A DNA stretch of 64,000 nt, from positions 43,286-107,285 of the IMG/VR virus record IMGVR_UViG_3300037400_002261; one strand, given 5' to 3'. A model generated the notes under the pieces. It was not told the DNA's origin and made no database searches. It worked only from the letters and a program-made list of their open reading frames with translations. Of this stretch, positions 13,375-41,500 are shown piece after piece (the first letter of the stretch is position 1; each line of letters opens with the position of its first letter). The DNA comes from a virus. Its lineage: Duplodnaviria; Caudoviricetes. The translations under genes and the position numbers were made by a program.

Positions 13375-14379
13375 ATGGCTCGTAGCCGAGGAGTTTACAA
13401 CAGAATTTATAGTGACGAAAAATGGTTATAGGTTAATCCTGAAAATAAAGCCATAATGGATGACTTCCTCACAGAGTTGCGACAATAGAAAAAAAGTCCA
13501 AATACTATTGAAGCATATAGACATGATTTAAAATTAATATTTATAAAAATTCTTGAAGACTTTAATAATAAGTCAGTTTTAGAAATGACAAAGAAAGATT
13601 TTCGCCGTTTAAATATTTGGTTTGATGATTCTGGAATGTCTCCAGCGAGATGTAATAGGCTTCACTCTTCTATCAATTCAATGTTAACATTTTGCGAAGA
13701 AGATGATGATTATGATTATGAAGTTAATTATAGTAAGAAAGTGCGTGGAGTTCCTAACGAAAAAGTAAAAACAAATGATGATGATTTCTTCTTTACATTT
13801 GATGAATTTATTAAAACAAGGAATATTCTTGTAGAACAAGGTAGATTGTAGGATGCTGTGTTATGGTCTTTAATGTATGATTCTGGTGCGAGACGTAATG
13901 AAGTATATCAAGTAAAGAAACAAGGTCTTCTTGATGGTAACAAAACAAATATTGTTAGAGGTAAACGTGGAAAACAATTTCCACTTATTTATTTAAATGA
14001 TACGAAAGAACTTATTCGCCAATATCTTGAATGGCGTGGTGATGATGGAATTGATTCATTATGGATTAAAGGACATGGAGAAACTGCTTCTGAGATTGAT
14101 TGTTCTACATTATATGATCGTATTGTAAGTATTAGTAAAATACTTTCTGAGGTTCGTGGTGAAGAAGTTAATATTTTTCCGCATAGTTGCCGCCATAGTA
14201 GATTGCAAGCATTAAAAAAGGGATGGGATGACCGTCTTAAGGATGATGGAGGGAAAAATAAAGTATTTGAATTAGATCAAATATAGGCATTTGCACATCA
14301 TTCAGATTTAACAACTACTTCTGGGTATCTTAAAGATGAAACTGAAGACAAAATAAATGAAATGTTTGGAATTTCATAA
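13375..14379 (+). CDS. Tyrosine recombinase (XerC/D, integrase family; 334 aa)
   Basis: With TAG=Gln the full catalytic set is present: R (SGARRNE), K (GKRGK), HxxR (PHSCRH), H (FAHH), Y (TTSGY). TAGs at 13429, 13486, 13849, 14284. Confidence 0.9.
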
Positions 14380-14393
14380 AAGGAAGGTGACAT

Positions 14394-15365
14394 ATGAAAC
14401 GTGGAATAAAATTGATGATTGTATTAATGTTATTGATGTTGATATCTCCTGTTTGTGAAGCAAAAATTGTAATTAACAAGCAACCTAAATCTTAGTATTC
14501 TCGTATTTCTGGAGAAGTAACTTTTACTGTTGAAGCAACTGGTAAAAATTTAAAGTATCAATGGTATGTTAGTAAAGATAAAAAGAAGACTTGGAATAAG
14601 ATTAAATATCAAACATCTAGATCTATCATTATTAGATGTAAAAAATCAAATAGAGGATATTATTATCGTTGTCGTATGGTGGACACATCTGGTAGATATA
14701 AAACAACTAAACCAGTGCGAGTATATGTTACAGATATTGGTAAGAAATATTCATACTTAATTGATAAGAAAAGAGCTAAAAACCTTTTCTATCCGAAAGC
14801 TGCTGATGGTTATTGTTATGTGTATTGTCATGATAGAACCTATGAGCAGCAAGTGATTGATGCTATAAATATCATTAATAAAAAAATTGGAACTACTTTT
14901 ATATATACAAAAACGGGATGTATAGCAGATATTATCATATTCAACTTTTATGATTATTATGTGGAAGATAATATTTGGTTTAGAGAATTAGAGAGATATT
15001 ATATTTACATGGAAGGTTATGATTTAGCTGGAATTACTTTTAATGATGAAGGGATTCATTATCTTGTTGGATTAAACAGCAGTTATTTTGACTATATTAT
15101 GGATGATGCAATTCGTGGAGTAATTATACACGAACTAGGACATTGTATTGGAGTTGCACATTCAAATAATAGAAATGATATTATGTATTATATAAGTAAA
15201 TTTAATGATAAGATGTCAAAAAATGATATTAAAATGTTTAAAAAACAAAGAACAAAAATTAAGAATATTGGTTCTGTTAATGTTGTTTCTAAAAAATCTG
15301 GTATAACAGATAGTATTAGAAAAAGATGTTTGGATAATTATTAGAACTAGATTCGAGGTAGATAA
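14394..15365 (+). CDS. Secreted Ig-like domain plus matrixin-type (metzincin) zinc metalloprotease
   Basis: Signal peptide MKRGIKLMIVLMLLMLISPVCEA. Ig I-set-like 'KQP...VTFTVEATG..LKYQWY...YYYRC'. HELGHCIGVAH zinc motif with Met-turn 'DIMY'. Ends TAA 15363-15365. Confidence 0.82.
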
Positions 15366-15368
15366 TAT

Positions 15369-15806
15369 ATGGAATATAAATTTATATTGGATTAGGATTT
15401 GGTTGATGAATATAACAAAATATATTTTAAACAAAATCCTAGAGCCAAAAAACCGTTTTTAACTAAACCTCGTCATCCAACACTTAATGAATGGACAATA
15501 ATGAAAAGACCATATGCTAATGCTCTAAAATAGAAATGGAAAACATTCGGAGTATGGTGGTGTAAAAAATTAGGATATGATGGTTTGATGTTGGAAAAAG
15601 TAAAAGTAGATATTACTGTATATCAACCACATCACAGGCGTGGAGATATTGATAATTTTTGCACTCAGAAATTTCTTTGGGATGCGTTTACTGAAGCCAG
15701 ATTTTGGGTAGATGATGATTACACTCATGTTACTGAGATTACATCTAGAATGGGTTATGATAAAGATAATCCACGAACTGAAATAATTATTAAAACAGTT
15801 GATTAA
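15369..15806 (+). CDS. rusA: RusA-like Holliday junction resolvase
   Basis: 'RRGDIDN...K...DA......WVDDD...V...........PRTEI.I' RusA signature. ATG15369 is in frame with track ORF 15585..15806. Confidence 0.75.
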
Positions 15807-15834: not shown

Positions 15835-16215
15835 TTGGGATATGTATATTATAATCCAAATCCAGCTGGAAAAATGGTTGGAGATTGTGTTATAAGAGCT
15901 ATTTCAAAAGTAGAAAACAAATCGTGGGAAGATGTCTTTGTTGAATTAATGACTACTGCATATAGTTTGTCGGACATGCCGTCTTCAAATTATGTAGTAG
16001 ATTAGTATTTAAAATCAAAAGGATTTGTTCATCGTAATCTTCCGAATACTTGTCCTGATTGTTATACGGTTAGAGATTTTGTTAATGAACATTAGGATAA
16101 ACCGTATATAGTTGCCACTGGATCTCATATGATTGGTGTAAATAAAAATATATATGATTCGTGGGATTCAAGTGATGAGATTGTAACTTATTATTATGAA
16201 AAGGAGGAATCTTAA
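15835..16215 (+). CDS. Cassette gene 1: small papain-like (C39-type) cysteine peptidase-like protein
   Basis: GGAGGTG RBS, TTG start. 'NPNP...VGDCVIRAI', 'GSHM' and 'YDSWDS' give a Cys-His-Asp order. Confidence 0.55.
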
Positions 16216-16216
16216 A

Positions 16217-16789
16217 ATGGATAATTTTTATGGATATCCAATTGGCTATCAACCAGTAAATCAAAATATTACATACCCAAATGTGCCTACAACTTATCGT
16301 GGTTGGCAAAATAGTACTACTGCTCTTCCATCTTATACTCCTAATACTCAGAATGTAAGTGGAAATATTATTTGGATTTAGGGCGGGTTGGCTGGAGCAA
16401 AAGCATATTCTAATCTTCAACCTGGAATTCCAGTTGCTCTTTGGGATTCTGATGAGAAGGTTATTTATATAAAATCTCTTGACCAAACTGGGAAACCAAG
16501 TATCACTATTATTGATTATACTGAGAGAGATTCTGACGAACAAGATAATAAGCAATCATCGGTTGAATATGCAACTAAAGATTAGATTAATGAATTAACA
16601 AAGTAGTTTAAGTCTTTTGGTGAAAAGTTGAACTCATTAAATAAGTATGTTACAAAAGATTAGTTTGATACTCTTAATGGACATCTTGATGACCTTAGTG
16701 GTCAAATTGAAGATATTGAAGATAGGATTACAAGTTTTGGCAAACCATAGCAAAACTCAAATTCTAATAATAGACGAGGTGGTAAATAA
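16217..16789 (+). CDS. Cassette gene 2: Y/P/Q/N-rich N-terminus, 'WIQG..GAKAY...LWDSD...YIKS.D..G.P' domain, coiled-coil tail
   Basis: AAGGAGG RBS. Track ORFs 16196..16381 and 16388..16585 are joined by TAG. Ends TAA 16787-16789. Confidence 0.75.
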
Positions 16790-17082
16790 TGCCTAATAAT
16801 TTGTTTAATAGATTTGGTAATATGAATTCAAATCAAAATTATGCAAATACTGGTAATAACATTATATCTCAATTAGCACAGTTACGGAGAAATCCTAGTG
16901 CTATTTTAGATATATTATTTTAGAATGGTAAAATAAATCAGTAGCAATACTCTGATTTACAACAATATAGAAATAATCCTGAAATGATTGGTAGATATTT
17001 GATTAATAATGGTAAAGCCAGTGAAATTAGTCAAGCACAACAAGTTGCTAATCAGATTGGAAATAATAGTAACTTTAGATAA
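16789..17082 (+). CDS. Cassette gene 3: N/Q-rich small helical protein (97 aa)
   Basis: ATG overlaps the upstream stop (TAATG), GAGGTGG RBS; 'NP......LFQNGKINQQQY'. Confidence 0.7.
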
Positions 17083-17197
17083 TAATTAAAATGCGAACAT
17101 AATATATTTAATTCTCCGTATCTGAGAAAAAGGAATAAATGGATAATAACATTATATAACTTTAAATTATTTTTATTCCAATAAGGAGGATATTATT

Positions 17198-17968
17198 ATG
17201 ATGAATTCAGAAGGTTTTAGTGCAGCTGATCTTGCGGCGGTAGTTGGAAATAATAATGATGGTTTTGGTAATGGTGGAAATGGAGCCTGGTGGTTACTTA
17301 TTCTTCTCCTCTTCGCAAATAATGGATGAGGAAATGGATGGGGTGGAAATAACGGTTCTGCTATGATGGGATATGCTACATAGCAAGATGTTTAGAACGG
17401 TTTTGATCAGGCAGCAGTTATGAGTGGCATTAATGGTATTAATAATGTCCTGAGCAATGGATTTGCAAATGCAGAAATATCTCGTGCCAATACTCTTGCA
17501 AGTATTACCAGTATGATGAATACCATTGCTATGAATCAGCAACAGGCTTCTTGTAATAATCAATTACAGGTTGCCAATCTTGGAGCGCAGATTGCTTCGG
17601 AAGCATGTGCTGACCGCCAGTCTGTAAATGATGGTGTTCGTGATATTATGGCTGCTAACACTGCTAATACTCAAGCTCTTCTTAATACTATTAATGGTGG
17701 AATTCAGTCTATTCAAGATAAATTATGCCAGCAAGAAATCAATGCACTTAAAACTCAGAATGAAAATCTTCAGACTCAACTCAATCTTGCAAATCTTCGT
17801 GGTTCTCAGGATGCTCAGACAGCGGCTATCTTAGCTAGTAATGAAGCGCAGACGGCTGCCATTGAAAGGTATCTTGCCCCGAATCCAGTTCCCGCATATA
17901 TCGTACCTCAGCCATTTGGGTGTAATTGCAACAATAATTATGGTTGCGGTTGTGGAATGAATGGTTGA
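17198..17968 (+). CDS. Cassette gene 4: Gly-rich hydrophobic N-terminus, long N/Q/A heptad region, Cys/Gly tail; one in-frame TGA at 17327
   Basis: AAGGAGG RBS, ATG17198 in frame with track ORF 17420..17968. Reads 'GGNGAWWLLILLLFANNG*GNGWGG' and ends 'GCNCNNNYGCGCGMNG'. Confidence 0.7.
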
Positions 17969-17983
17969 TTGGAGGTGGTGTAT

Positions 17984-18457
17984 ATGGCTGAATACTCAGC
18001 AAACACTGTACAGACAGTAAATCCAGGTGAAACTATAATTTTCACCGAATCTCCTGTTCCATGTACTCGTGGTTTTGTTCGTCATCGTGATGATACTGGA
18101 AATTTTCTTTTGAGCGGTTATGTACCGAATAGTTTTAATAGAGGATGTTGCTGTAATAGAAAAAATAGTGCTACTTATTTAGTTGATTTTGGAGCAAATA
18201 TAGCTATTCCTACTGGTGGTACTCCAGAAGCAATATCTGTTGCTATAACTATTGATGGCTCTACTATACCAGCCTCTACAATGATTGTGACTCCAGCTGC
18301 TGTTGAATAGTTTTTCAATGTATCTTGTGCAATTAATGCATAGATTTGGCGTGGATGCTGTGAGACAATCGCTATAAGAAATACGAGTGATTAGCCAATA
18401 TTAGTCCAGAATGCGAATGTGATTTTTTCGCGTCCTGACTTAAATGTTACACGGTAA
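17984..18457 (+). CDS. Cassette gene 5: all-beta protein, possibly BclA-C/C1q/TNF-like
   Basis: GGAGGTGG RBS; TAG read-through to TAA 18455-18457. 'QTV.PG..I.F...Y.V.FGANI...I.IDG' pattern with a CCC motif. Confidence 0.65.
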
Positions 18458-18465
18458 GGAGGGAA

Positions 18466-18894
18466 ATGGTAATGCAAGAGTTTGATAATATTAAAGATAT
18501 GGTTTATTGTGAACTTGATGAAATTTCTCGCCAAGGTAAAATGGATATGAACACTGTTAAAGTGCTCGGCGAGTTGACAGATATACTTAAAGATATCGGC
18601 AGTATAGAAATGTTCGAAGAAGGTATTAATATTCAGGAAGATGATTTTATGTAGACTAATGGATATAGTCGTAATGGCGGTTATTCATAGAGAAGAATGC
18701 CAGTTTATTATGATGGTAACAGTTATAACTCTCGTGGTATGAGTAATGGTGGCTATTCTCGCAGAAGTCGTGGTTATAGTTACGATGATAGTAAATCTCA
18801 TATGATCGAAAAGTTAAATCATCTTATGATGGAAGCTTCTGATCAATAGGATAAAGATGCTATTCAGCGTCTTATTGATTAGATGTAGAGATAA
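18466..18894 (+). CDS. Cassette gene 6: helical N-terminus with GYS/R-rich low-complexity region
   Basis: AAGGAGG RBS; 'NGYSRNGGYSQRR...NGGYSRRSRGYSYDD'. Ends TAA 18892-18894. Confidence 0.7.
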
Positions 18895-18943
18895 TAGATA
18901 TTGAGATGAATTAAATATATGGTTCGTATTTTGATTAATATAA

Positions 18944-18974
18944 GGGGAACAAGATTTTTTGTTCCCCATTTTTT
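18944..18974 (+). terminator. Rho-independent terminator closing the cassette
   Basis: GGGGAACAA/TTGTTCCCC stem followed by ATTTTTT. Confidence 0.8.
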
Positions 18975-19895: not shown

Positions 19896-20468
19896 ATGGC
19901 ATATACGAGTTTTTATTAGTTGATACAAGATATTAAACGTGATATTGGTAAAATTGGAAATAAGATAGCAAGGGGTGTTGCAGAAATTGCTCATGAAGAT
20001 ATGTGTGAGGCACACTCTTCTATTATTGAAAGTTATTATGGTGGCTATACTCCAGTTAGTAGTTATACTTACTATTATTATTCTCCAAGTGGAAAATTTT
20101 ATTCTGGTCGTTCTCATGGATATAGACGAACTGGAAATTTGAAAAATAGTATTATTCCACAGGGTGTAACAGGTAGTGGTCATTCTTTTACTGCACGAAT
20201 ACAAGTTGGTCCAATGTAGATGGATGGATATATTAATTCTACTGGGAGAGTTTTTCCAGCTGAAGGTGTTTTTGATTTGATTTGGGATCAAGGAATTCGT
20301 GGTTTACCAGAAGGTTATAGAGGGCATATAGGTAATGTAAGTATATCTGCTGCGCCAGTTGGAATTGGAATATCTGGAAAACCAGATGAAGCTATGAATG
20401 AATTTATGGATAATTGGTGGGCATAGCGTGGACAACAAATGGCTGATATGATTGCAGGAAGTGTATGA
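19896..20468 (+). CDS. HK97 gp10-like tail completion protein
   Basis: 'YRRTGNLKNSI' motif. Track ORFs 19920..20219 and 20220..20426 are joined by TAG. Ends TGA 20466-20468. Confidence 0.6.
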
Positions 20469-20469
20469 T

Positions 20470-20500
20470 GGGAAGTGCAATATTGTACTTCCTATTTTTT
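20470..20500 (+). terminator. Terminator-like hairpin before the tape measure gene
   Basis: GGAAGTGCAA/TTGTACTTCC stem followed by a T-run. Confidence 0.6.
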
Positions 20501-38500: not shown

Positions 38501-41500
38501 GAACTAGCTGGGCAAAATTGACTGATAAAGGATACAAATTTGACATAGATAGTATGGAAGAGTTTGCTGATGCTATGGGTACTTCGACTGAGTTTGCTGA
38601 ATATATGCTTATGGCGATGAAGGATGCTGCTTATGATGTTGATATATCTCGTATTGGTGATCGTTATGCAGAAACATTTGATAAAATTGTTGGAACAGAA
38701 GCTAATGCTGGATAGCAAATTTCGAATTTATTAAATGATATGGAAGCTACTGCTTCTGCTGGTGGAGATATTACTCAAGCTGCTGAATCTGCTGGATAGG
38801 CTATTTAGAGGATGCATGATGCAGGAGCAAGTGATGCTACAATTAATAAACTTGTTGAAACATATAATGAACTTGGTGAATTGAATGGTTTCCGTATTGA
38901 CCCGAAAACATTAGAGATTACCACTAATGTGGATAAATCTGAATTAGAAGTAACTGAAAAAGAAGCTGAGAAACCTATTGATAAATGGATTAAGATTAAA
39001 ACTAAATATGATATTTCCGAAGAAGATATCACAAACACAAATAATGCAATTCAAAGGGCATTTTAGGGAAATAAAGCAAATGCTGAATAGTATTTAAAAG
39101 ATTCTGGTATAAGTGATAATACTGCTGCTGAGTTATTTGAGATTGATTTTGAAGATGGGGAATATAAAATTGAAACAGCTGATGCAGAAGCAGCTATTGA
39201 AAATCTTGCAGTTAAAATTGGATTAATAAATGATAAATCTGAAATTACAAATGAGACTGCCCAAGCACTTATTGCTACTCTTGCTGAACTTGGTCTTATT
39301 GATATTGAAACAGATGTTGATATAAATGATATTAAAGAAGCTGAAGAAAATATTGATAATCTTCACAAGAAGTCTGAGAAACCAGTTAAAATTAAAACTG
39401 AAATAGAAAGTGAATAGAATCGTGATACAAGTGCTTATTATTCTTCTATTGAACCATTATCTCGCAGAGTTCAATCTGAGCATCAATAGAATTTAGATAC
39501 GAGTGCTCACTATACTATGCCAGAAGCTGGTGAATTAGAACAACATCGTAGAATTGTTTATCAAATTCAAACAGAACTTGCAGACGGTGGAACTACGATT
39601 AATAAACTTGAGAATTTAACTGACCAAGAAATTGTGGAACGTTTTAATGTCGAAGGTGCTGAAGAAATTCAAATGGTTCGTGATACTATATCTGAAATAT
39701 CATCATCTGAGGGTTATGATCTTGTTGTGAAAATAGATCAAGAATAGCTTGATTCTATAACAGAAGCATTAAACCCAACTGAACAAGAACCAATTATTCC
39801 AGAAGTTGATAATACTCAAGCACTTGATGCTATAGAAGAAGTGTCTGAAAAAGTAGAAGAACTTGCTTAGAGAATGTCTGAGTTGAAACTTACAGTAGAT
39901 AATGGTAATGGTATAGAAGAAGGTGGGTCTGCATCAATAGAATTAGAAACACCAGATAAAACAACATCATCTGGTTCATCGACTTAGGAATAGGTTGTAA
40001 CTCCTACTGCTATTAACTATGCTGATAATATGGTTATTAGTGCTCAAGCCGTAGTAGATAATGTTGATACTTCACAATATGATGGTATACAACTTGATGA
40101 TAAAGAAGCACAAGTAAATGTAAAAGCTGATACATCTGAAGCTGAAGGTGAAATTAATACGTTTACAAGTAATCCATTTACTGCAATTGTTAATTTTATC
40201 ACTGGTAAAAAAGCCGATACTCCCGAAGAATCATCACAAAGTTCAGAAACAATTACTATGAATTATGAACCTGGTTCAACTGGTGAAGTTGAAGGTGCAA
40301 TAGATAACGTTAAGGGTTATGCAGAAAGTAATCCAGCAGAAATACCAATAAATGGAAATAATGATGATGCAAAAGCAAGTGCTGATGAAGCTGAATCATA
40401 TGCTAGTGGCAAAACTCCGCAAATGAGAATTACTGGTAATGCTTCGGCTGCATTAGGTTCAGCTGATGCTGCTGTAAGTGTAATTAATGCTAAAACAGCA
40501 CAAATTAAAGTATCTGCTGATACATCTACGCTTGTGAATAGTGTTAGTAATGCTCTTTCTAATAGGACATTTACTGCTAATGTAGTAGCAAATATAACTG
40601 GTACGCTGATGAATGTTGCTGTTTAGAAACCAAGTGCTTCTGCTCCAGTTAAAGGTGATTCTGGAGCAAAAGATGCGCCATTTTATACTGGTACTCTCCT
40701 CTCTCATGCTCGTGCAACTGGTACATTAAAAGATTTTGATGATTATATTATTGGTGGTAAAGCACACGCAAATGGTGATGTTACTATTCCTCAAGATGAA
40801 GATTCATTAGTAAATGAACTCGGTACAGAATCAATTATAAGGGATGGTATTTGGAGATTAATTCCAGGTGGAATGCATGTAGAACATTTGAAAAAGGGAG
40901 ATATTGTTCTGAACCATTTGTAGACTCGTGATCTTATTGAAGACGGGAAAGCATTTGGTAATGGTAAACTTATAGGTAATGCATTTGCTAAAGGTACTGC
41001 ATTTAATGGAATGCCAGCACATGCTACTAAACGAGACTCAGAAGCTCATAGCAATGGCGATAGTTCAAGAGTAAATCCTGCTCGTCAACATGTTGGAACT
41101 TTACCTCAATCTACTGGTACTGGAAATCTTGGTAAAACAATAGGAGATGCTGGCAATCAAGCACAGGGTGCTGGTCAAGATATTAAAGACGCAGCTGAAA
41201 ACACTGAAACCGCTCTTGATAGATTCAAGAAATGGGCAGACTCACTCTTCGACTGGATTGAAGTCCGTATGGAACGTCTGCAACATTCTATTGATAAGTC
41301 AACAGCATAGGCTGAACTTGCAAGAACATTCTAGAAGAAGAATTCACATATTGAAGACGCAATGACAGTTCTTCAAGGTCGCAATACTAAAGCTGAACAG
41401 AAACAAGTCACGAAAGAAATAAAAGAAGAAAAAGCTGCTGCAAAGAAAGCGGGAGCAAATCTTAAAAAGACCACTTATGGTAATATAGATATGAATAATC

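What the first reader, a model, noticed from the sequence alone, without database searches (positions are those of the whole stretch)
15835..18974. Six-gene cassette of unknown function: protease-like gene, Gly/hydrophobic coiled-coil precursor, BclA/C1q-like beta protein and prion-like proteins
Seen: a compact block with strong RBSs and a closing terminator, inserted among tail genes. It encodes (1) a Cys-His-Asp peptidase-like protein, (2,3) N/Q/Y/P-rich proteins, (4) a protein with a Gly-flanked hydrophobic helix, a long N/Q/A heptad stretch and a Cys-Gly tail, (5) a Cys-containing all-beta domain, and (6) a GYSR low-complexity protein. From memory, similar unannotated clusters recur in gut Bacillota phages. 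Inference: a dedicated self-assembling system, such as a protease-matured, membrane-anchored trimeric fibre with a beta cap, disulfide-linked like spore exosporium proteins. It could remodel the host spore or cell surface, or form a condensate or amyloid. This is the best candidate here for an undescribed system.
Basis: partly seen in the sequence, partly recalled or inferred. Interest (0 to 1): 0.85.

Follow-up and report, generated by a model that had tools for sequence, protein, structure and literature searches.

The report
Portable six-gene phage stalk-and-knob module
The six genes are one copy of a widespread, movable and still uncharacterised phage gene module (a small protease, a cysteine-rich rod with a greasy head, a spore-surface-like knob protein and three low-complexity partners) that this phage can make only late in infection; what it does is unknown.

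Summary
Read with TAG as Gln, 15835-18974 holds six co-oriented genes, four with strong ribosome-binding sites, closed by a strong terminator.

The unit is real. All six genes are colinear in 24 of 25 viral loci and 42 of 63 genome loci that had room. They also occur in Butyrivibrio phage Ceridwen and in a prophage of cultured Vescimonas fastidiosa.

Folds:
- g1 is a minimal papain-fold Cys/His/Asp peptidase.
- g5 is a TNF/C1q jelly roll, closest to Bacillus F-BclA, ExsF/BxpB and BclA.
- g4 has a Gly/Trp-flanked 12-residue apolar stretch, a coiled coil and conserved Cys clusters.
- g2, g3 and g6 have no known relatives.

New here: a divergent version drops g1 and carries a small HExxH metallopeptidase instead (71 loci with g1, 10 with the metallopeptidase, none with both). 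Some small protease accompanies nearly every copy.

The phage has a CUA tRNA and TAG-free upstream genes, so the module is late-only. The spore or lysogeny reading is therefore weak.

In this window g4 is broken by an in-frame TGA where every relative has Trp.

Function is unknown. My best guess is a protease-matured stalk-and-knob assembly built in the cytoplasm. The scan had already met this cassette on other DNA.

The parts
15835..16215 (+). g1: 126-aa minimal papain-fold cysteine peptidase (invariant Cys-His-Asp; conserved CPxC)
   Evidence: Starts at TTG 15835 behind GGAGGTG. phrog_3754 E 3e-24. 1228 homologous clusters. Invariant C30/H110/D120, numbered from the 15799 ORF. AF2 pLDDT 90.8. 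All top-50 structural neighbours are clan-CA peptidases, Z 5-7. The Foldseek top ranks are double-glycine C39 peptidases, but E >= 0.07. Two in-frame TAGs.
16196..16789 (+). g2: 197 aa; Q/N/P/Y-rich N-terminus, conserved ~55-aa beta-rich core (..VQGxxGAKAYxVxPG..YIKSxDxxGKP..), C-terminal amphipathic helix and basic tail
   Evidence: phrog_21718 E 1e-19. The same architecture appears in nearly all loci. The profile has no PDB relative. Five TAGs. Its start overlaps the end of g1.
16789..17082 (+). g3: 97-aa Q/N-rich helical protein (..NPxxILDxLLxNGKIxQQQY..)
   Evidence: No Pfam or PHROG match. Positional and sequence homologues occur in most loci. Two TAGs. Its ATG overlaps the g2 stop.
17198..17968 (+). 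g4: 256-codon rod protein. N-terminal 'FSAADLAAVVGN' motif, G/N/W-flanked apolar stretch, coiled-coil-like body with CCC/CADR/DKLC motifs, C-terminal PAY..NPNCC..GCGC tail. Interrupted here at codon 44.
   Evidence: phrog_16490 E 9e-25 spans residues 10-253, across the TGA. At least 8000 homologous clusters, none named. Conserved columns. Apolar run median 12 aa; 19-residue Kyte-Doolittle (KD-19) hydropathy maximum, median 1.53; no K/R in the first 60 aa. Strong RBS AAGGAGG. Only coiled-coil noise against PDB.
17327..17329 (+). In-frame TGA in g4 at a column that is Trp (TGG) in every relative
   Evidence: TGA ends 9 of 36 ORFs, including g4 itself, and occurs in frame nowhere else in 20,101 codons, against 212 TGG. 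It is therefore a nonsense change, an assembly error or a low-level read-through site.
17984..18457 (+). g5: 157-aa stand-alone TNF/C1q-type jelly-roll protein with Cys-rich loop and near-invariant GCC; the most conserved member of the module
   Evidence: phrog_20016 E 8e-40; Pfam BclA_C only 13.8 bits. 6228 clusters at 90% identity and 510 representatives at 50%. AF2 pLDDT 94. Foldseek: F-BclA CTD 9h38 E 1e-7, ExsF 9h3d, BxpB 8d02, ExsFA 7r1m, EDA, BclA, C1q-likes. 80-85% identical to relatives, where the other genes are 37-77%. Three TAGs.
18466..18894 (+). g6: 142 aa; acidic N-terminal helix, G/Y/S/R-rich middle, conserved C-terminal helix
   Evidence: No family reaches significance; phrog_28802 is only E 0.002. 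Positional homologues share the same three-part build and motifs (..TGRYVSRD....GHSIKDRMV..LE..). No PDB relative. Five TAGs.
18944..18974 (+). Intrinsic terminator closing the module
   Evidence: GGGGAACAAGATTTTTTGTTCCCC followed by ATTTTTT. 8 terminator-like sites were found against 1.9 expected in the scanned region.

Best explanation
This is one copy of an autonomous, horizontally portable phage module. In this phage it is expressed with the late genes.

Shown:
- Six genes travel together in a fixed order.
- g1 is a small papain-fold cysteine peptidase.
- g5 is a free-standing TNF/C1q-type jelly-roll protein of the kind that forms the knobs and anchors of the Bacillus exosporium nap.
- g4 is a long, largely helical, Cys-rich protein. 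A conserved N-terminal peptide is followed by a 12-residue apolar stretch flanked by Gly/Asn/Trp.
- g2, g3 and g6 are low-complexity proteins with short conserved cores.
- No member other than g4 has an apolar N-terminus.
- A divergent version replaces the Cys peptidase with a small HExxH metallopeptidase.

Inferred:
- The products assemble in the cytoplasm late in infection into a stalk (g4 coiled coil) and knob or base (g5 trimer) structure.
- The small protease matures one or more members, most likely the N-terminus of g4.
- The apolar stretch buries itself in lipid or in an oligomer core.
- The Cys clusters and the low-complexity partners hold or organise the assembly.
- It is released at lysis.

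The logic resembles BclA or F-Anchor docking on ExsF, where a leader is trimmed and an N-terminal peptide sits in the clefts of a TNF-fold trimer. The module is not a member of that system. The biological purpose (adhesion or clumping, protection of virions, membrane action) is not known.
For: Unit and order:
- All six genes are colinear in 24/25 IMG/VR loci and 42/63 species-representative genome loci with room.
- The unit also occurs in Ceridwen, Dulem virus 33 and Vescimonas fastidiosa MM35.

Folds:
- g5.
- g1.

Protease as a constant:
- 71 loci carry g1 only, 10 carry the SprT/M78-like HExxH protein only, none carry both and 4 carry neither. The HExxH loci have divergent but recognisable g2, g3, g4, g5 and g6.

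Late expression:
- Every gene has 2-5 in-frame TAGs.
- A CUA tRNA lies 4.1 kb before the window, and the nine ORFs ahead of it are TAG-free.

Cytoplasmic assembly:
- g2, g3, g5 and g6 have no signal peptides.

g4-g5 core:
- g4 and g5 are adjacent in nearly every locus, and g5 is the most conserved member.

g4 N-terminal motif:
- It is conserved in two classes. One has the L(-12) S(-11) D(-8) V(-7) V(-4) G(-2) spacing of double-glycine leaders.

Analogue:
- The ExsF-peptide docking and BclA leader trimming are described in PMC12357932.
Against:
- The g4 N-terminal motif is kept in loci with either protease. Its class switches at least 16 times on the g5 tree, against about 26 for shuffled labels. 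It is therefore tied neither to g1 nor to a g5 lineage.
- g4 does not match the exosporium-leader model TIGR03720.
- g1 relatives occur alone in early regions of Tsamsa-like Bacillus phages and Geobacillus GBK2, and also in Lak phages, whose context was not examined. g1 may therefore act on host proteins.
- The ten metallopeptidase loci are probably one clade, which would make this one replacement event.
- The apolar stretch is short for a membrane span: median 12 residues, with the KD-19 hydropathy maximum (median 1.53) below the 1.6 cut-off.
- In this window g4 is itself interrupted.
Confidence: 0.4

Rival explanations
1. Lysis or egress accessory. Protease trimming exposes the Gly/Trp-flanked apolar peptide of g4. 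The coiled-coil rod then acts on the cytoplasmic membrane with g5 as its head, timing or completing cell rupture. The build loosely resembles a cleaved fusion protein or a spanin.
For: The module directly follows holin and endolysin in Ceridwen, Dulem virus 33 and the Vescimonas prophage. GH25, amidase and holin families recur among upstream neighbours. Expression is late. g4 has an apolar segment and a coiled coil.
Against: In this phage and its nearest relatives the module is far from any lysis gene. In other loci it precedes the terminase or follows structural genes. The carriers whose flanks were examined keep a holin-endolysin pair, and none of those scans named a lipoprotein partner of the spanin kind. 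g2, g3, g5 and g6 have no obvious membrane role. The very strong conservation of g5 is unexplained.
Confidence: 0.18
2. Virion appendage. g4 and g5 form a head or tail fibre with a C1q-like knob, and the others act as assembly factors.
For: The module is late-expressed and lies inside the structural operon here. TNF/C1q-like knobs end many phage and giant-virus fibres (cyanophage A-1(L) fibre domain 8ke9).
Against: The same module sits in unrelated phages of 40 kb and of more than 100 kb, at different genome positions and often outside the structural genes. That is hard to reconcile with a specific docking site on a virion. g5 is the most conserved gene, whereas receptor-binding tips usually diversify. 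g4 has an apolar segment. No virion proteome is available.
Confidence: 0.15
3. Matrix or condensate. The low-complexity proteins g2, g3 and g6, together with the Cys-rich g4 and g5, form a cross-linked material that organises assembly in the cell or embeds released virions.
For: Q/N/P/Y-rich, G/Y/S/R-rich and G/N/W-rich tracts, plus many conserved Cys. The chemistry resembles spore coat and exosporium (general knowledge). The related BclA-type tips promote spore clustering (PMC12357932).
Against: The case rests purely on composition. The low-complexity tracts vary while the short cores are conserved. There is no evidence of cross-linking. The peptidase being replaced by a metalloprotease argues against g1 being a transglutaminase-type cross-linker.
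Confidence: 0.1
4. One reading: a lysogenic-conversion or spore and cell-surface remodelling system made by the prophage for the host.
For: In temperate relatives the module lies at the prophage end next to the integrase or att site, a classical moron position. g5 is closest in fold to exosporium proteins.
Against: All six genes need TAG suppression here and in other recoded relatives, so a lysogen using the standard code cannot make them. The module is present in Ceridwen, which has been seen only lytic. Butyrivibrio and Selenomonadaceae do not sporulate (general knowledge). g2, g3, g5 and g6 have no export signals.
Confidence: 0.06
5. Host takeover or counter-defence. The small protease is the effector and cleaves a host protein, and the other five are unrelated passengers or regulators.
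For: g1 relatives stand alone among early genes of Tsamsa-like Bacillus phages and GBK2, next to an ocr-like gene and a kinase in Tsamsa; they also occur in Lak phages, where the neighbouring genes were not examined.
Against: This does not explain the fixed six-gene order, the late expression, or why a different protease comes with the same five partners.
Confidence: 0.08

Closest known systems
Exosporium nap and appendage anchoring of the Bacillus cereus group: BclA / F-BclA C-terminal domains and the ExsF (BxpB, ExsFA) trimer that binds N-terminal leader peptides (PMC12357932)
   Same: g5 has the same TNF/C1q jelly-roll fold, and these proteins are its best solved matches. Like ExsF it is a small free-standing protein. 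Both systems are built in the cytoplasm without export signals. Its neighbour g4 is a long rod with a conserved N-terminal peptide. Proteolytic trimming of the leader is part of the known system, and a protease accompanies the module in 81 of 85 loci.
   Different: Sequence identity is 13-15%, and Pfam BclA_C scores 13.8 bits against a cut-off of 38. The stalk is helical, not collagen. There is no TIGR03720 leader. The module is encoded by phages, including phages of non-sporulating hosts, and is expressed late in lytic growth. It has five partner genes with no exosporium counterpart.
Double-glycine leader peptidases (Peptidase C39: ComA, PCAT1, LahT150)
   Same: g1 has the same size (about 125 aa), a papain fold and the Cys...His...Asp order. 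These enzymes rank first in Foldseek and sit among the top VIA rows. Class-A g4 N-termini have the leader's hydrophobic and acidic spacing.
   Different: There is no Pfam C39 match, and structural scores are modest (E >= 0.07, Z about 6). No ABC transporter is present. The residue at -1 is usually Asn. Class-B N-termini lack the motif, and the motif persists where g1 is replaced by a metalloprotease.
Stop-codon-recoded (TAG to Gln) gut and rumen phages with a standard-to-recoded switch at late genes
   Same: The module lies in the recoded part. A CUA tRNA and TAG-free upstream genes are on the same contig.
   Different: Recoding is a property of this host phage, not of the module. By the + strand coding test, 26 of the 33 IMG/VR carriers use the standard code.
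Spanins (Rz/Rz1) and other coiled-coil lysis proteins
   Same: An N-terminal apolar segment, a coiled coil and conserved Cys. The module is often next to holin and endolysin.
   Different: No lipoprotein partner was found. Most of the module has no membrane features. It is found in phages labelled to both monoderm and diderm Bacillota and is often far from the lysis genes.

Membership tests
TNF/C1q superfamily, BclA_C-type domain (g5) | Compact jelly-roll fold superposable on BclA/C1q/TNF domains | tested here: met
   AF2 pLDDT 94. Foldseek E 1e-7 to 5e-5 and TM 0.6-0.77 to 9h38, 9h3d, 8d02, 7r1m, 1rj7 and 1wck.
TNF/C1q superfamily, BclA_C-type domain (g5) | Sequence match to Pfam PF18573 above its gathering score | tested here: not met
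   13.8 bits, E 0.055, against a cut-off of 38. phmmer against PDB found nothing.
TNF/C1q superfamily, BclA_C-type domain (g5) | Homotrimer | not testable with these tools
   Only monomer prediction was on offer.
BclA/F-Anchor-ExsF exosporium anchoring system | Partner protein carries the exosporium leader peptide (TIGR03720) | tested here: not met
   No NCBIfam hit to TIGR03720 in eleven g4 proteins of both N-terminal classes at E <= 10 (E <= 1 for the window's own g4).
BclA/F-Anchor-ExsF exosporium anchoring system | Collagen-like (GXY) stalk | tested here: not met
   The g4 sequences show a helical, coiled-coil-like body and no GXY repeats.
BclA/F-Anchor-ExsF exosporium anchoring system | Encoded by a spore former and part of the spore surface | tested here: not met
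   The context is always phage or prophage. Ceridwen infects Butyrivibrio. The nearest relatives are labelled Selenomonadaceae.
Peptidase C39 (double-glycine leader peptidase) (g1) | Papain fold with catalytic Cys, His and Asp in that order | tested here: met
   Invariant C30, H110 and D120. All top-50 VIA rows are clan-CA peptidases.
Peptidase C39 (double-glycine leader peptidase) (g1) | Sequence match to PF03412 | tested here: not met
   No Pfam hit at E <= 0.1. The only trace is an atlas neighbour cluster in which 11% of members carry C39.
Peptidase C39 (double-glycine leader peptidase) (g1) | Substrate with a Gly-Gly type leader; coupling to an ABC exporter | tested here: inconclusive
   The leader-like spacing occurs only in class-A g4 N-termini, with Asn or Gly at -1. 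No ABC transporter family appears among the 25 commonest Pfam families of the ORFs flanking the module on either side.
Spanin (two-component) | i-spanin with N-terminal TM helix plus an o-spanin lipoprotein gene embedded or adjacent | tested here: not met
   None of the six products begins with a signal peptide plus Cys (lipobox-like) N-terminus. The g4 apolar run has a median of 12 aa.
TAG-recoded late-gene set of a code-switching phage | In-frame TAGs in the genes, a phage CUA tRNA, and TAG-free genes before it | tested here: met

The most novel reading that the evidence does not exclude
The module builds a previously undescribed phage-made structure in the cytoplasm late in infection. A dedicated protease trims g4. 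This frees a Gly/Trp-flanked apolar peptide on a Cys-linked coiled-coil stalk capped by an exosporium-type TNF-fold trimer, with three low-complexity proteins as matrix. The product would be either a membrane-active egress device or a coat or clumping matrix released with the virions. In effect it would be a spore-surface-like assembly co-opted by phages of non-sporulating gut anaerobes.
Probability: 0.22. Interest if true: 0.85.

Novelty: categorically new. Interest (0 to 1): 0.66.

Why it matters
Thousands of sequence clusters of g4 and g5 in gut and rumen data show that this is one of the commoner accessory modules of Bacillota phages. Even so, every member is annotated as hypothetical and no paper was found that describes it.

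It combines a fold otherwise known from spore surfaces with a dedicated protease that has been swapped for another catalytic class. That swap is the signature of a working machine rather than a chance neighbourhood.

Because it moves between unrelated phages, its function should be self-contained and general. Solving it would annotate a large block of viral dark matter and could reveal a new late-infection process such as egress, virion protection or clumping.

Two cultured systems make it testable: Ceridwen on Butyrivibrio fibrisolvens DSM 3071, and the Vescimonas fastidiosa MM35 prophage.

Tried and rejected
- TGA=W recoding as the explanation for the g4 stop. Rejected: TGA ends 9 of 36 ORFs and occurs in frame nowhere else.
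- g1 as a transglutaminase-like cross-linker of the Gln-rich g2 and g3. This was considered on composition alone. It became less likely because the alternative version carries a metalloprotease.
- The g4 N-terminal motif as a g1-specific cleavage site. Weakened, because both motif classes occur with either protease.
- Co-inheritance of the N-terminal class with g5 lineages. Not seen: at least 16 switches on a quick tree. Weak branches may inflate this count.
- Exosporium leader (TIGR03720) in g4. No hit.
- Profile searches of g2, g4 and g6 against PDB, and phmmer of g1 and g5. Nothing beyond coiled-coil noise.
- Longer g5 relatives as informative fusions. They are deletion chimeras, g1-g5 and g5-g6.
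- DUF7211, the commonest downstream neighbour family. It is not the g6-position gene and no paper was found on it.
- Plasmids. The only hit is a prophage on the Vescimonas secondary replicon.
The first genome scan with the wide alignment failed and was repeated with a tighter one.
- The upstream M10/astacin-like protease and RusA are not part of the module. The protease is absent from all the IMG/VR and annotated phage loci searched with it.
Full report
**1. What is in the sequence**

Under the standard code the region is a litter of short ORFs. Reading TAG as a sense codon raises the + strand coding sum from 7,435 to 19,607 residues and opens an 8,310-codon ORF. No other reassignment does this.

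With TAG=Q the stretch 15835-18974 holds six co-oriented genes:
- g1: 15835-16215
- g2: 16196-16789
- g3: 16789-17082
- g4: 17198-17968
- g5: 17984-18457
- g6: 18466-18894

g1 starts at a TTG six bases after GGAGGTG, in register with the 'MGY..NPNP' start of its homologues. g4, g5 and g6 have AAGGAGG-type sites. g1/g2 and g2/g3 overlap.

A ten-pair hairpin with a T-tract at 18944-18974 closes the block. The scan found 8 terminator-like sites against 1.9 expected.

**2. Code and timing**

Each of the six genes carries 2-5 in-frame TAGs. On the same 107-kb viral contig a tRNA with anticodon CUA lies about 4.1 kb before the window. The nine long + strand ORFs ahead of it have no in-frame TAG, while those after it do.

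The module therefore belongs to the recoded, tRNA-dependent part, together with the portal, capsid and tail genes.

TGA is a normal stop in this phage. It ends 9 of 36 ORFs, and there is no other in-frame TGA in 20,101 codons, against 212 TGG.

**3. The unit recurs**

- g4 and g5 are adjacent in 9 of the 15 public phage records that hold g5.
- In Butyrivibrio virus Ceridwen and Dulem virus 33, g1, g2, g4 and g5 lie in the same order (g6 also in Dulem virus 33), just after the endolysin.
- I fetched 33 IMG/VR loci and 80 loci from species-representative genomes and scored them with HMMs built from the viral loci.
- All six genes are colinear in 24 of 25 viral loci and 42 of 63 genome loci that had room for them.
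- g2, g3 and g6 diverge fast but keep their build.
- By the + strand coding test, 26 of the 33 IMG/VR carriers use the standard code and 7 are recoded.

Neighbours are always phage genes, but of many kinds:
- Upstream: connector, capsid and tail genes, GH25 and amidase lysins, holins, integrases and sigma-70 region-4 regulators.
- Downstream: integrase, large terminase and DUF7211.

The module is therefore portable and sits at module boundaries.

MAG labels place the nearest relatives in rumen Selenomonadaceae. The rest fall in Lachnospiraceae, Oscillospiraceae and Acutalibacteraceae. These labels are only as good as the binning.

A cultured isolate, Vescimonas fastidiosa MM35, has the complete set after holin-amidase at a prophage end. 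Every listed gene there is annotated 'hypothetical protein'; g1 is not in the gene table at hand.

**4. The parts**

*g5*
- It is a free-standing family of 135-165 residues, with 6,228 clusters at 90% identity and 510 representatives at 50%.
- The model is confident (pLDDT 94).
- It is a TNF/C1q jelly roll. The best solved matches are the F-BclA C-terminal domain, ExsF, BxpB/ExsFA, EDA, BclA and C1q-like proteins (E 1e-7 to 5e-5, TM 0.6-0.77, 13-15% identity).
- In the viral structure library it matches only uncharacterised gut-phage proteins, a few of them auto-named 'BclA protein'.
- It is the most conserved member: 80-85% identity to the SPbeta-like relatives, where the other five genes are 37-77%.

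*g1*
- It has an invariant Cys, His and Asp plus a conserved CPxC and a confident model (pLDDT 90.8).
- Foldseek gives no significant hit. Its first ranks are the double-glycine C39 peptidases LahT150, PCAT1 and ComA.
- The exhaustive aligner lists only clan-CA cysteine peptidases in its top 50, at Z 5-7.
- I read it as a minimal papain-fold peptidase. Membership of C39 is not shown.
- Relatives of g1 stand alone among early genes in Tsamsa-like Bacillus phages and Geobacillus GBK2. They also occur in Lak phages, whose surroundings I did not examine.

*g4*
- At least 8,000 homologous clusters, none named.
- The layout is a conserved N-terminal peptide, a G/N-rich linker, an apolar run, then a long helical body.
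- The apolar run has a median of 12 residues. The maximum 19-residue Kyte-Doolittle (KD-19) hydropathy has a median of 1.53. There is no Lys or Arg in the first 60 residues.
- The body carries near-invariant CCC, CADR and DKLC motifs, and the tail reads P.PAY..NPNCC..GCGC.

*g2, g3 and g6*
- None has a Pfam, NCBIfam or PDB relative.

**5. New evidence on the protease**

Ten genome loci seemed to lack g1, g3 and g6. They are in fact a divergent full version of the module:
- a g2-like protein;
- a g3-like protein;
- g4 and g5;
- a g6-like protein, with helix, Y/G/S/R-rich tract, 'RDSREGRSP' motif and helix;
- directly after it, a protein of about 105 residues with an HExxH motif.

The HExxH protein scores as SprT-like, DUF6782 or M78, just under Pfam's cut-offs. 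It also matches PHROG families annotated 'metallo-protease' and 'peptidase'.

Over 85 loci with room, 71 have g1 only, 10 have the HExxH protein only, none have both and 4 have neither. The ten are probably one clade, so this is likely one event. Still, the same five partners travel with a small protease of either catalytic class. That makes proteolysis part of the module's working and argues against g1 being a cross-linking enzyme.

**6. What the protease might cut**

g4 N-termini fall into two conserved classes:
- Class A, for example LSAADVAAVMGN, has the hydrophobic and acidic spacing of double-glycine leaders.
- Class B, for example MVMPVAPMYGGG, is Pro-rich. This recalls the exosporium leader peptides that dock in ExsF clefts and are trimmed in BclA (PMC12357932).

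Three results count against a simple story:
- Both classes occur with either protease.
- The class switches at least 16 times on a g5 tree, against about 26 for shuffled labels.
- No g4 matches the leader model TIGR03720.

A docking or trimming role for this peptide is therefore only a hypothesis.

**7. Reading**

Shown:
- a portable six-gene unit;
- late-only expression here;
- the two folds;
- the protease, of one class or the other, in 81 of 85 loci;
- no export signals on four of the six products.

Inferred, at about 0.4:
- a protease-matured stalk (g4) and knob or base (g5) assembly made in the cytoplasm;
- the apolar stretch buried in lipid or in an oligomer core;
- the low-complexity proteins acting as organisers;
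- release at lysis.

Rivals:
- A lysis or egress device. It is often adjacent to lysis genes, but not here.
- A virion fibre. Portability and g5 conservation argue against it.
- A matrix or condensate. The case rests on composition only.
- A lysogenic or spore-surface function. This is contradicted by recoding, by a carrier seen only lytic and by non-sporulating hosts.
- A host-directed protease with passengers. This does not explain the fixed order.

**8. This copy**

Codon 44 of g4 is TGA where every relative has Trp. Given point 2, this is a nonsense change, an assembly error or low-level read-through. The next in-frame ATG, at 17363, would give a product without the apolar head.

**9. Novelty**

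No paper describing such a module was found. RefSeq and GenBank call the genes hypothetical.

The scan itself had already met the cassette in at least eight other windows. Two follow-ups there reached the same 'portable, function unknown' view.

- the protease replacement;
- the motif-class tests;
- the interrupted g4;
- a cultured carrier with the complete module.

Noticed in passing
window 20530-45462 (+): A single 8,310-codon ORF with 164 in-frame TAGs, directly after the module and a second terminator-like hairpin (20467-20496). Its first 280 residues weakly match a PHROG annotated 'baseplate hub' (E 3e-6). If it is a tape-measure-type protein, it is extraordinarily long.
   Followed up: partly
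window 14394-15365 (+): A signal-peptide protein with an Ig-like domain and an M10/astacin-type HExxH protease domain, carrying 3 TAGs. It was absent from all 35 related loci searched with it (2 annotated phage records and 33 IMG/VR loci), so it is a private addition of this phage and not part of the module.
   Followed up: partly
window 13375-14379 and 15369-15806 (+): A tyrosine recombinase (4 TAGs) and a RusA resolvase (2 TAGs) sit inside the recoded late operon just before the module. RusA precedes the module in five relatives (L003-L006, L008), and L003 also carries the same recombinase at 93% identity.
   Followed up: partly
L120 15099-15334 (contig 39098-39333, about 4.1 kb before the window): A tRNA cluster of CUA-anticodon (TAG-reading), Thr and Asn tRNAs marks the boundary between TAG-free and TAG-containing genes.
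   Followed up: yes
L117 (Tsamsa gp15), L118 (GBK2_35), Lak phage records: Relatives of the small peptidase g1 stand alone in the early regions of Tsamsa and GBK2, next to a kinase and an ocr-like gene in Tsamsa. Some records annotate them as 'putative peptidase'. g1 matches in Lak phage records were listed but their context was not examined.
   Followed up: partly
P0206, P0184 (database proteins): These are deletion chimeras of the module. One has a g1 N-terminus fused to g5 and the other has g5 fused to the g6 C-terminus. They show that decayed copies exist.
   Followed up: no
window 17083-17197: A 115-nt AT-rich gap between g3 and g4 recurs, at 60-120 nt, in many loci. It may hold an internal promoter or a processing site ahead of the strongly translated g4-g5-g6 half. 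The promoter scan was no better than chance.
   Followed up: no
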